Shown: positions 26,247-29,200 of the stretch, in pieces
Position numbering within the stretch: position 1 is the stretch's first letter
Layout: each line of letters opens with the position of its first letter
Program-made: the position numbers
DNA from: Escherichia coli
GTDB lineage: Bacteria; Pseudomonadota; Gammaproteobacteria; Enterobacterales; Enterobacteriaceae
Assembly: GCF_044324785.1 (NCBI RefSeq)
Contig: NZ_CP172127.1
Length of the DNA: 64,000 nt
Strand: one strand, 5' to 3'

Positions 26247-29200
26247 TTAAAAGACAGGCATACTAATAAACACTGCACTGTGTATTCATTCCAACGAGTG
26301 AATACACGGAGCAATGTCGCTCGTAACTAAACAGGAGCCGACTTGTTCTGATTATTGGAAATCTTCTTTGCCCTCCAATGTGAGGGCAGTTTTTTTGACG
26401 GAGTAAACGATGATAAAAACTGATTACCCTGCAGAGCTTAAACAAAAAGTAATAACAGCAATTAAATGCTCTTTTATCTCATGTCGTACAGATGAAGAAC
26501 GATATGTCGTTGAGTGTACAATTGTCGAGTTTCTCACAGCGATGGAATTTACCGCTGCAGAATCAATAGATGTATTAAAGCAATCAGACGGAAATGATAT
26601 TGAAACGGATGATGTTATTGACCGACTAATAAAATCATTCGAAGAAGAAATAGAGTAGCCGCCTGAGCGCGGCTTTACCGCATACCAATAACGCTTCACT
26701 TGAGGCGTTTTCGTTATGCAATCAAACAGAAGGAGCATCCTATGCAACAGTTCGCTATTGCAGGGGCGGCATCGGTTCGCCCTTTCAACCCGATTTTATC
26801 GGTGCAGCATTCACGAAAAAATATTTTAACCGGAGCAGACTTTAAACAACCAAGAATGAAAAGTTTGCTCGAAAAGCTTTGGGATATTTTGAAACAACAA
26901 GGCCGTCCATGAGTTTTACAGATAACTGGTCAGACGAAGAATTCATTCGTCAGATGAAAGAATTAATCGGTAACGAAGGAGATATTCATGTCACTTGCAA
27001 CCACAGTGAAGGAGAGCAAGTTACAGAGACGCATGCACACGCAGAAAGCTCTCTGGTATCGCCATAATGGCGACCGCGAAGGAATGCGGGTATGCCTTAA
27101 TTTGTCCCGAGTCGAAGTATTAAATCAGCGTTATTTCCTTGGGCCTTGTCCATTCTGAGGTGAATTATGGATTTGAACAAATTCGATGAGCCATTCAGCC
27201 CTGAAGATATCGAATGGCGAATACAGCAAAGCGGTAAAACACGCGATGGCAAGGTGTGGGCTATGGTGCTGGCTTATGTCACGAACCGGGCAATCATGAA
27301 ACGCCTGGACGATGTTTGCGGCAAAGCAGGATGGCGCAATGAATACCGCGATATTCCCAACAACGGCGGCGTTGAATGCGGCATATCAATAAAGATTGAT
27401 TCCGAATGGGTAACCAAATGGGATGCTGCTGAAAACACGCAGGTAGAAGCCGTCAAAGGTGGTCGTTCCGGTGCAATGAAGCGCGCTGCCGTTCAGTGGG
27501 GAATCGGTCGGTATCTGTATAACCTTGAGGAAGGTTTCGCACAAACATCTCTCGATAAAAAGCAGGGGTGGCACAGGGCAAAACTGAAGGATGGAACAGG
27601 ATTTTACTGGATCCCTCCATCGCTTCCGGGATGGGCAATCCCAGCATCAGATAACAAACCATCACCAGAAAATACCAACCAGAAATCTCCATCGGTTGAC
27701 TGCGAACAAATCCTGAAAGACTTCAGCGATTATGCATCGAAAGAAACTGATAAGAAAAAACTCATCGAGCGTTATCAGCGTGACTGGCAATTAATGGCTG
27801 GAAACGAGGAGGCGCAGGCTAAATGCGTTCAGGTAATGAACATCAGAGTTAACGAGCTAAAACAGGCGGCATAAATGGCAAGCAGAGGCGTAAATAAGGT
27901 GATCATTATTGGTCGCCTTGGGCATGATCCAGAAATCAGATATTCACCATCAGGAACGGCATTTGCAAACCTTACAGTTGCTACGTCAGAACAATGGCGT
28001 GATAAGCAAACTGGAGAGCAAAAGGAGCAGACGGAGTGGCACCGCGTGGTAATGAGCGGAAAACTGGCAGAAATTGCCAGCGAATATCTGCGAAAAGGCT
28101 CTGAGGTTTATCTTGAAGGAAAATTGCGGACAAGAAAATGGCAGGATCAAAGCGGACAGGATCGGTTCACTACCGAAGTCATCGTGGGCGTTGGTGGAAC
28201 CATGCAAATGCTTGGTGGCAAGCAAGGAGGCAATGAACAGTCTTCACCTCAGCGAAATGACGGTCAGCAACAAAGACAGCAACCTCAGCAGCAAGGGAAT
28301 CACAGCGAACCACCTATGGATTTTGACGACGATATACCCTTTGCACCAGTAACTCTCCCCTTCCCTCGTCACGCTATTCACGCAATTTAATCAGGAGAAA
28401 ATCATGCCAGCGCCTCAGTATGGTGCGGATGACCCGCGCCGCTGTTCCAGCAATTCCGTATCGGAGGTGCTGGATAAATTCAGAAAAAACTACGATCGGA
28501 TAATGTCGCTACCGCAGGAAACGAAAGAGGAAAAGGAATTTCGCCACTGTATATGGCTTGCAGAGAAAGAAGAACGCGATCGAATTTACCAGACATCAAT
28601 CCGACCATTCCGCAAAGCCACATATACCCACTTCCCTGAATATATCGACCCGCGCCTGCGTAATTACCGCTCACGCTATGGCGCTATCAGTAATGACTGA
28701 GGAATTTACCATGAGAGGACTTGCATACAATCCCGGCATTCTTCCGGCAGAAATGATTATTCGCCAACGCGTAAAGCCAATGCCATCGAGAGAGGAATTA
28801 CTTAAGAGAAATAGTTTCGGTTCTGTTAATGACAACAAATATCTGAATGCGATGTGGCGCAAAGGAGGCAAGCAGTGAACAAGATTGACTATCAGGCACT
28901 GCGTGAGATAGCAAAGCACCAGAGACTTACAGAATAATCAGCGAGCTACGCAATGACTAACGCCTCACACTCGATGAGGCTTGTTCATTGCTCAATGATA
29001 TCCAGACCTACCGCAATAATACCAATCCAATAAATGGAGATTCCAGGTGGAAGAAGAAATCTTCACTCGTGAAGAGGCAGCGTCGTATCTGAAGGTAGAC
29101 AAAGGCACTATCACGCAGTGGATACGAAGTGGACGACTTCAGGCCGCAAAGATAAATCCAGATAAACCTAAAAGCCCATATCGCATTTGCAAGTCAGACT

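What the first reader, a model, noticed from the sequence alone, without database searches (positions are those of the whole stretch)
27167..27874. Chimeric single-strand annealing protein
The last ~50 residues closely resemble the P22 Erf C-terminus as I recall it, but the N-terminal DNA-binding domain has Rad52/Sak-like features rather than Erf, suggesting domain shuffling within the recombination module.
Basis: partly seen in the sequence, partly recalled or inferred. Interest (0 to 1): 0.35.

Follow-up and report, generated by a model that had tools for sequence, protein, structure and literature searches.

The report
Rad52-type phage annealase with Erf tail
This prophage gene encodes a common DNA-annealing recombinase with a Rad52-like DNA-binding core and the same short C-terminal domain as phage P22 Erf; the mixture is real, but the gene is widespread and already catalogued (the phage Sf6 gene 28 family).

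Summary
ORF 27167-27874 (+, 235 aa) matches Pfam Rad52_Rad22 over aa 4-136 (E 4.9e-26) and gives no ERF hit. P22 Erf matches Pfam ERF over aa 5-146. The two proteins align only at their C-termini (62% over 79 aa, E 1e-29; 73% over the last 56 aa; 78% nucleotide identity over the last 171 nt).

AlphaFold2 gives a Rad52/Mgm101-like N-domain, a disordered hinge (aa 163-176) and a confident three-helix C-terminal domain (CTD).

The "domain shuffling" reading is supported, but the gene is not a one-off:
- It is 98% identical in DNA to Sf6 gene 28, HK75 and mEp235.
- It occurs in 400 of 5426 complete E. coli genomes.
- Public annotations call it either "Rad52/Rad22 family" or "Erf-like".

The CTD is a portable cassette found on three annealase cores: Rad52-like and two ERF clades. 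Each CTD sequence type examined occurs on more than one core. DNA breakpoints lie at the hinge and at the stop codon. In the loci sampled, P22's ERF-core-plus-this-CTD combination is the rare one.

What the CTD does is inferred only: probably partner recruitment (SSB, or Abc2-modified RecBCD). This is an ordinary, known gene and a clean example of mosaicism inside a gene.

The parts
27167..27874 (+). Single-strand annealing protein gene (235 aa), the Sf6 gene 28 / ES18 gene 49 type
   Evidence: ORF. 97.7-98.3% nucleotide identity to Sf6 gene 28, HK75, mEp235 and mEpX2. PHROG 1097 match over the full length, E 1.2e-129.
27167..27646 (+). N-terminal Rad52/Mgm101-like annealing core (aa 1-160)
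   Evidence: Pfam PF04098 at aa 4-136, E 4.9e-26. AlphaFold2 pLDDT is mostly 80-96. The top 14 Foldseek PDB hits are all yeast Mgm101 or human RAD52 N-domain, best E 2.6e-4, probability 0.95-1.00.
27647..27700 (+). Flexible hinge (aa 161-178), the site of the mosaic junction
   Evidence: pLDDT <50 for aa 163-176. In L087 the switch from window-like to HK97-like DNA falls here, at gene nt ~490-500. Homology to P22 starts at 27704.
27701..27871 (+). C-terminal three-helix domain (aa 179-235) shared with P22 Erf
   Evidence: 73% aa identity to P22 Erf over the last 56 aa. 77.8% nucleotide identity over 27704-27874. The CTD-only AlphaFold2 model has pLDDT 89.6 and three helices.
26909..27067 (+). 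Small upstream ORF (Sf6 gp30 homologue) whose N-terminal motif resembles P22 Arf
   Evidence: PHROG 2123. 98% nucleotide identity to the HK97 gp42.1 region. Motif MSFTDNWSDEEFI is linked to P22 Arf through a Klebsiella phage Arf homologue.
26988..27158 (+). Second small upstream ORF (Sf6 gp29 homologue), equal to the C-terminal half of HK97 gp42.1 in another frame
   Evidence: PHROG 1723.
27875..28390 (+). Phage SSB, starting one base after the annealase stop codon
   Evidence: Pfam SSB at aa 6-105, E 1.3e-38. Homologue of Sf6 gp27.
28404..28700 (+). Abc2 anti-RecBCD protein
   Evidence: Pfam PF11043 Anti-RecBCD_p2, E 8.2e-60.

Best explanation
The gene encodes a two-domain phage single-strand annealing protein. 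It lies in the early-left recombination module of a lambdoid/P22-like prophage, in the order N ... small ORFs - annealase - SSB - Abc2 - xis - int - tRNA-Thr. Residues 1-160 form a Rad52/Mgm101-fold core, which presumably oligomerises and anneals complementary ssDNA. Residues 161-178 are a disordered hinge. Residues 179-235 form a small three-helix bundle that is the same domain as the C-terminus of P22 Erf. The combination arose by recombination at the hinge. The CTD-coding segment (about 150-170 bp) behaves as a separately exchangeable cassette, and the core-coding segment (about 450 bp) is swapped between Rad52-like and ERF-type cores inside otherwise colinear modules. Shown here: the domain assignments, the junctions and the combinatorial distribution. 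Inferred: the CTD is a protein-protein adaptor that couples the annealing core to other machinery. The most plausible partners are host or phage SSB, or the Abc2-modified RecBCD resection complex. This is by analogy with the C-terminal domain of lambda Red-beta.
For: Domain assignment. C-terminal homology to P22 Erf. Junctions: E. coli locus L087 is 98.4% identical to the window up to about gene nt 500, then 90.5% identical to HK97 through the CTD, gp40 and abc2. Rad52-core locus L092 matches P22 at 98.7% over only the last 153 nt of erf and diverges right after the stop codon. Salmonella loci L095, L097 and L099 are homologous to P22 through kil-arf up to the erf ATG, lose homology across the core, and regain it from erf nt ~448-466 through the CTD, abc1 and abc2. 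Combinatorics: CTD identity across different cores is 100% (P0036 vs HK97 Erf), 96% (P0021 vs P22 Erf), 93% (P0074 vs ERF2 locus L253) and 80% (P0088 vs Erwinia phage 49). Same-core pairs can differ strongly: P22 vs HK97 cores are 92% identical but their CTDs only 39%. Tally of 299 loci. [quoted passage not shown]
Against: No partner is identified. CTD type A occurs with either SSB or Abc1 as the downstream gene. Abc2 is about 90% conserved next to both CTD types A and C, and is mostly absent from ERF2/type B modules. The Arf-like upstream ORF is absent from many loci. The CTD model has no significant structural match in PDB, and the Red-beta CTD was not retrieved. The link between CTD type C and HK97 gp40 (81 of 82 loci) may simply reflect physical adjacency. 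The locus tallies are biased because each set is the top 80 hits for one CTD query.
Confidence: 0.85

Rival explanations
1. The whole protein is an ordinary ERF-family member, as the RefSeq and PHROG labels 'Erf-like ssDNA annealing protein' imply.
For: PHROG 1097 is named 'Erf-like' and matches over the full length. Many phage records label the gene erf.
Against: There is no Pfam ERF hit at E<=1, whereas Rad52_Rad22 scores 91.9 bits. Cores are 13% identical and core-only hhalign gives probability 0.09%. Fold matches go to Mgm101 and RAD52. PGAP names the E. coli copies 'Rad52/Rad22 family DNA repair protein'. The 'Erf-like' label appears to derive from the shared CTD and from gene position.
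Confidence: 0.03
2. The window gene is the recent recombinant: a Rad52-type annealase that captured the C-terminus of an ancestral Erf.
For: P22 Erf is the founding member, and ERF cores carry related CTDs in three clades.
Against: In the sampled loci, CTD type A sits on a Rad52-like core in 157 of 161 cases and on an ERF1 core in 4. ERF1 cores otherwise carry CTD type C (81 of 85). Full-length Rad52-core-plus-CTD proteins span 57-97% identity across many Enterobacterales genera, so the architecture is old. Direction cannot be proven, and sampling is biased.
Confidence: 0.25
3. The CTD is not a partner adaptor. It contributes instead to DNA binding or to oligomer assembly of the annealase itself.
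For: No partner was found to co-vary consistently with CTD type. Nearly invariant residues include surface-type Q217, R227 and E230.
Against: The CTD works on non-homologous cores, which is hard to reconcile with a role in core-specific assembly. From my recollection of Poteete and colleagues' work in the 1980s, which I could not retrieve here, Erf fragments lacking the C-terminal domain still form rings and bind DNA but are inactive in vivo.
Confidence: 0.2
4. The C-terminal resemblance is chance or compositional similarity between short helical tails.
For: The domain is short (56 aa) and helical, and its structural matches are generic three-helix bundles.
Against: BLASTP E 1e-29. 78% nucleotide identity to P22 erf, and up to 98.7% between P22 erf and a Rad52-core gene. 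The register is conserved, with about eight positions at least 90% conserved across 54 diverse CTDs.
Confidence: 0.01

Closest known systems
Shigella phage Sf6 gene 28 protein (also ES18 gp49, HK75, mEp235, mEpX2, IME10)
   Same: It is the same gene: 97.7-98.3% nucleotide identity over all 708 nt (92% for ES18), the same position upstream of SSB and abc2, and the same two-domain architecture.
   Different: Only point differences in the annealase itself. Sf6 carries an HNH gene (gp26) between SSB and abc2 that the window lacks.
Salmonella phage P22 Erf
   Same: The C-terminal ~56-residue three-helix domain (73% aa identity), the position in the module (after arf, before abc genes), and presumably the in vivo role.
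   Different: The annealing core is Pfam ERF rather than Rad52_Rad22, and no homology is detectable. P22 has abc1 rather than ssb downstream.
Rad52 family: human RAD52 N-domain, yeast Mgm101, lactococcal phage ul36 Sak
   Same: Pfam family and predicted fold of residues 1-160.
   Different: Sequence identity to the solved structures is 13-19%. None of them carries this CTD. Oligomeric state and annealing activity are untested here.
Lambda Red-beta (N-terminal annealing domain plus C-terminal helical domain that binds lambda Exo and SSB)
   Same: The same overall logic: core, flexible linker, and a small helical CTD believed to mediate partner binding (PMC11611040).
   Different: No sequence or significant structural similarity between the CTDs was found. 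This module has no dedicated exonuclease; it encodes Abc2, which modifies RecBCD.

Membership tests
Rad52/Rad22 family (Pfam PF04098) | Profile match above the curated gathering score over the N-terminal DNA-binding domain | tested here: met
   91.9 bits against a cut-off of 20.3, E 4.9e-26, aa 4-136, profile positions 7-153 of 153. All 120 listed homologues carry PF04098.
Rad52/Rad22 family (Pfam PF04098) | Rad52 N-domain fold | tested here: met
   AlphaFold2 model with pLDDT 81.8. The top 14 Foldseek PDB hits are all Mgm101 or RAD52, probability 0.95-1.00, best E 2.6e-4. TM-scores are modest at 0.3-0.5.
Rad52/Rad22 family (Pfam PF04098) | Ring or filament oligomer with ssDNA annealing activity | not testable with these tools
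   Needs biochemistry or electron microscopy.
ERF family (Pfam PF04404) | Profile match over the ERF core (P22 Erf aa 5-146) | tested here: not met
   No ERF hit at E<=1. Cores are 13% identical. Core-only hhalign gives probability 0.09%.
ERF family (Pfam PF04404) | P22 Erf-type C-terminal domain (outside the Pfam ERF model) | tested here: met
   E 1e-29; 73% identity over 56 aa. This domain is not diagnostic of ERF, because it also occurs on Rad52-like cores.
Sf6 gp28-type annealase (PHROG 1097) | Full-length match and conserved position in the rec module | tested here: met
   E 1.2e-129 over aa 1-235. 97.8% nucleotide identity to Sf6 across the small ORFs, annealase and SSB.
Red-beta-type C-terminal domain (PDB 6M9K) | Structural similarity of the CTD to the Red-beta CTD | tested here: not met
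   The best Foldseek PDB matches for the CTD model have E >= 1.2 and are generic three-helix bundles such as MIT domains. Red-beta is not among the 50 matches listed. Any functional analogy remains untested.

The most novel reading that the evidence does not exclude
The ~56-residue CTD may be an autonomous, horizontally exchanged specificity cassette for an unidentified partner. It is shared by at least three annealase cores (Rad52-like, ERF clade 1, ERF clade 2), and CTD types A, B and C each sit on more than one core, with a weaker case for type D. On this reading P22 Erf, the textbook founder of the ERF family, is itself the recombinant. CTD swapping could then be a rational way to re-target recombineering annealases to new hosts or partner proteins. 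A 2025 survey of lambdoid recombination modules explicitly left the analysis of shuffled partner-interaction domains undone (PMC12315714).
Probability: 0.3. Interest if true: 0.45.

Novelty: already known. Interest (0 to 1): 0.2.

Why it matters
The finding explains why one gene carries two conflicting public names. RefSeq phage records and PHROGs call it "Erf-like ssDNA annealing protein", while PGAP and Pfam call it "Rad52/Rad22 family". It is also a clean, quantifiable case of mosaicism inside a gene, with joints at a domain boundary. In practice, if the CTD sets which partner (SSB or the resection machinery) an annealase uses, it bears on moving recombineering proteins between hosts. The gene itself is common and already sequenced many times, so nothing in this window changes current understanding.

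Tried and rejected
1. Searching the 5.8-billion-protein index with the 62-aa CTD alone returned only 15 short fragments. That used one capped search for little gain.
2. A profile search of the 1.84-billion representative set with the CTD gave only 20 hits, mostly fragments or frameshifted products. It did reveal the ERF2/type B link.
3. Apparent same-core, different-C-terminus proteins (P0108, P0039, P0115, P0135) turned out to be frameshifted or mis-called products, not alternative CTDs.
4. A profile search of PDB sequences with the full-length alignment gave no significant hit.
5. Foldseek with the CTD model against PDB and BFVD gave no significant matches. The BFVD list does contain several proteins annotated as ERF, Sak3 or RecT family or as recombinases, at probability 0.54-0.97 but E about 1-2. 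I treat that as a hint only.
6. CTD type does not track a single downstream gene: type A occurs with SSB or with Abc1.
7. The Arf-like upstream ORF is not an obligatory companion. It is absent from 52 of 54 ERF2/type B loci and from about half of the Rad52/P22-subtype loci, using a simple motif scan.
8. I could not retrieve the Sf6 (2004) or ES18 (2005) genome papers, or Iyer et al. 2002. I therefore cannot cite their wording on this chimera. The Sf6 GenBank note "similar to phage P22 Erf protein" shows the resemblance was seen in 2004.

Full report
**The feature.** The window contains an intact 235-codon ORF at 27167-27874 on the + strand. It lies in the early-left operon of a lambdoid/P22-like prophage. 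The gene order is:
- CI-type repressor, 23985-24671 (Peptidase_S24);
- lambda-type N, within 25343-25672;
- small ORFs;
- this gene;
- SSB, 27875-28390;
- Abc2, 28404-28700;
- an HTH_17-domain ORF at 29047-29394, in the position of an excisionase;
- integrase, 29271-30431 (54% identical to P22 Int);
- tRNA-Thr(CGT), 30446-30521;
- a 417-aa reverse-strand ORF at 30636-31889, which I take from its translation to be proA; it was not profile-tested.

**Checking the observation.** Pfam places residues 4-136 in Rad52_Rad22 (PF04098, 91.9 bits against a cut-off of 20.3, E 4.9e-26). It reports no ERF match even at E<=1. P22 Erf, taken from BK000583, matches Pfam ERF over residues 5-146.

BLASTP between the two proteins aligns only window residues 157-235 with Erf residues 134-205 (62% identity, E 1e-29). 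The last 56 residues are 73% identical, while the first 130 are 13% identical. In DNA, similarity to P22 erf is confined to window 27704-27874 (77.8% over 171 nt). Core-only profile-profile comparison of a Rad52-core alignment with an ERF-core alignment gives probability 0.09%.

**Structure.** An AlphaFold2 model built on 83 homologues has mean pLDDT 81.8. It shows:
- a mixed alpha/beta N-terminal domain (aa 1-160);
- a disordered hinge (pLDDT <50 for aa 163-176);
- three helices at aa 179-234.

[quoted passage not shown] Modelled alone, the CTD is a confident three-helix bundle (pLDDT 89.6). It has no significant match in PDB, and the lambda Red-beta CTD was not retrieved. It has no significant match in BFVD either. 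That list does include several proteins annotated as ERF, Sak3 or RecT family or as recombinases, at non-significant E-values.

**How common it is.** The gene is 97.7-98.3% identical in DNA to Sf6 gene 28, HK75, mEp235, mEpX2 and IME10, and 92% identical to ES18 gene 49. Ninety-three phage records hold a full-length match. It is present in 400 of 5426 complete E. coli genomes, where PGAP names it "Rad52/Rad22 family DNA repair protein". All 80 IMG/VR loci fetched with its CTD encode the same two-domain protein.

Full-length homologues, with the Rad52 core and a related CTD, span 57-97% identity across Salmonella, Citrobacter, Cronobacter, Klebsiella, Enterobacter, Erwinia, Pantoea, Providencia and other genera. 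So the architecture is old and widespread. The Sf6 GenBank record already notes "similar to phage P22 Erf protein". PHROG 1097, which covers the whole protein, is named "Erf-like".

**Evidence for shuffling.** The CTD family occurs on three cores.
- A Rad52-like core (this gene).
- An ERF clade containing P22 Erf and HK97 Erf, whose cores are 92% identical.
- A second ERF clade found in Klebsiella phage RCIP0098, Erwinia phage vB_EhrS_49, Morganella phage IME1369_01 and many IMG/VR contigs.

This distribution is documented.

CTD sequence types do not follow the cores. P22 and HK97 Erf have 92%-identical cores but CTDs only 39% identical. Conversely, Rad52-core proteins carry CTDs that closely match those on ERF cores:

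| Rad52-core protein | ERF-core comparator | CTD identity |
|---|---|---|
| P0036 | HK97 Erf | 100% |
| P0021 | P22 Erf | 96% |
| P0074 | ERF2 locus L253 | 93% |
| P0088 | Erwinia phage 49 | 80% |

**DNA breakpoints.** The junctions are sharp.
- E. coli locus L087 is 98.4% identical to the window up to about nt 500 of the gene. It then switches to 90.5% identity with HK97 through the CTD, gp40 and abc2.
- Rad52-core locus L092 matches P22 at 98.7% over only the last 153 nt of erf. It diverges immediately after the stop codon.
- Salmonella loci L095, L097 and L099 are colinear with P22 through kil-arf up to the erf start codon. They lose all similarity over the ~450 bp core, and regain it from erf nt ~448-466 through the CTD, abc1 and abc2.

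In a tally of 299 loci the combinations were as follows:

| Core | CTD type | Loci |
|---|---|---|
| Rad52-like | A (window subtype) | 82 |
| Rad52-like | A (P22 subtype) | 75 |
| ERF1 | A (P22 subtype) | 4 |
| ERF1 | C (HK97) | 81 |
| Rad52-like | C (HK97) | 1 |
| ERF2 | B | 55 |
| ERF2 | D | 1 |

The samples are biased, because each is the top 80 hits for one CTD query. Even so, P22's own combination is the rare one. That makes P22 Erf at least as good a candidate for "the chimera" as the window protein.

**Likely mechanism.** Three things are shown: a Rad52-fold annealing core, a flexible hinge, and an independently folding CTD that is exchanged as a cassette. The role of the CTD is inferred. 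Because it functions on non-homologous cores, it is unlikely to be part of core-specific assembly or the annealing chemistry. An adaptor role is more plausible.

[quoted passage not shown] This has been shown for Red-beta and is unknown for other annealases (PMC11611040). From memory, and not retrievable here, Poteete and colleagues found that Erf lacking its C-terminal domain still forms rings and binds DNA but is inactive in vivo.

I looked for a co-varying partner and found none that is consistent.
- CTD type A occurs with either SSB or Abc1 as the downstream gene.
- CTD type C is almost always followed by HK97 gp40, but the two are physically adjacent.
- Abc2 is nearly constant beside both types A and C, and mostly absent from ERF2 modules.
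- An Arf-like small ORF is often upstream but not always.

The partner is therefore unknown. My estimate is that SSB (host or phage) or Abc2-modified RecBCD is the most likely target.

**Novelty and score.** The gene is already known and abundant. Its dual nature is visible in public annotation. A 2025 survey of lambdoid recombination modules mentions shuffling of partner-interaction domains without analysing it (PMC12315714). The finding is correct but ordinary, with interest about 0.2. The residual novel angle is the combinatorial CTD cassette and its unidentified partner.

Noticed in passing
window 27875-28390: The phage SSB does not end at the canonical acidic tip. After ...MDFDDDIPF it continues with [15 protein letters not shown]. 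The last 14 residues are identical to the C-terminus of the Sf6 gp26 HNH protein. Relative to Sf6, the window lacks 462 bp (the SSB stop codon plus most of the HNH gene). Among 80 related loci, about 58 have this extended SSB and about 22 have SSB ending in DIPF followed by the HNH gene. This looks like presence or absence of an HNH insertion at the SSB 3' end. An SSB tip that is not C-terminal might alter partner binding.
   Followed up: partly
window 26909-27067 and 26988-27158: These two overlapping small ORFs (Sf6 gp30 and gp29 homologues) correspond to a single 83-aa ORF, gp42.1, in HK97. In the window and in Sf6 the reading frame is split. The N-terminal motif (MSFTDNWSDEEFI...) is shared with P22 Arf through a Klebsiella phage intermediate.
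   Followed up: partly
window 25665-26168 (- strand): A 167-aa reverse-strand ORF sits inside the early-left operon between N and the recombination genes. It matches PHROG 1244 (unknown function) and has no Pfam or PADLOC hit. Its C-terminus has two Cys pairs (CAQC ... CHRC). It may be a moron.
   Followed up: partly
window 26410-26658: An 82-aa ORF matches PHROG 14587, annotated as an anti-restriction protein.
   Followed up: no
window 29271-31889 and 15393-15548: The prophage right end has an integrase 54% identical to P22 Int, directly followed by tRNA-Thr(CGT) at 30446-30521 and then a 417-aa ORF I take to be proA. This suggests integration at that tRNA gene. Two more tRNA genes, Thr(TGT) and Asn(GTT), lie inside the prophage at 15393-15548.
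   Followed up: no
L087 (E. coli GCA_012349825, contig AASHRX020000001.1) 3001-3678: A natural hybrid annealase. Its Rad52-like core is 99% identical to the window protein and is joined at the hinge to a CTD 100% identical to that of HK97 Erf. It is followed by an HK97 gp40-like gene and abc2.
   Followed up: yes
protein P0002 (106 aa, from a 42-kb Logan contig): A database protein fuses the N-terminus of the lambda-type N protein (MDAQTRRRERRAEKQAQWKAAN...) directly to the hinge and CTD of this annealase. It is presumably a deletion derivative of a similar prophage.
   Followed up: no
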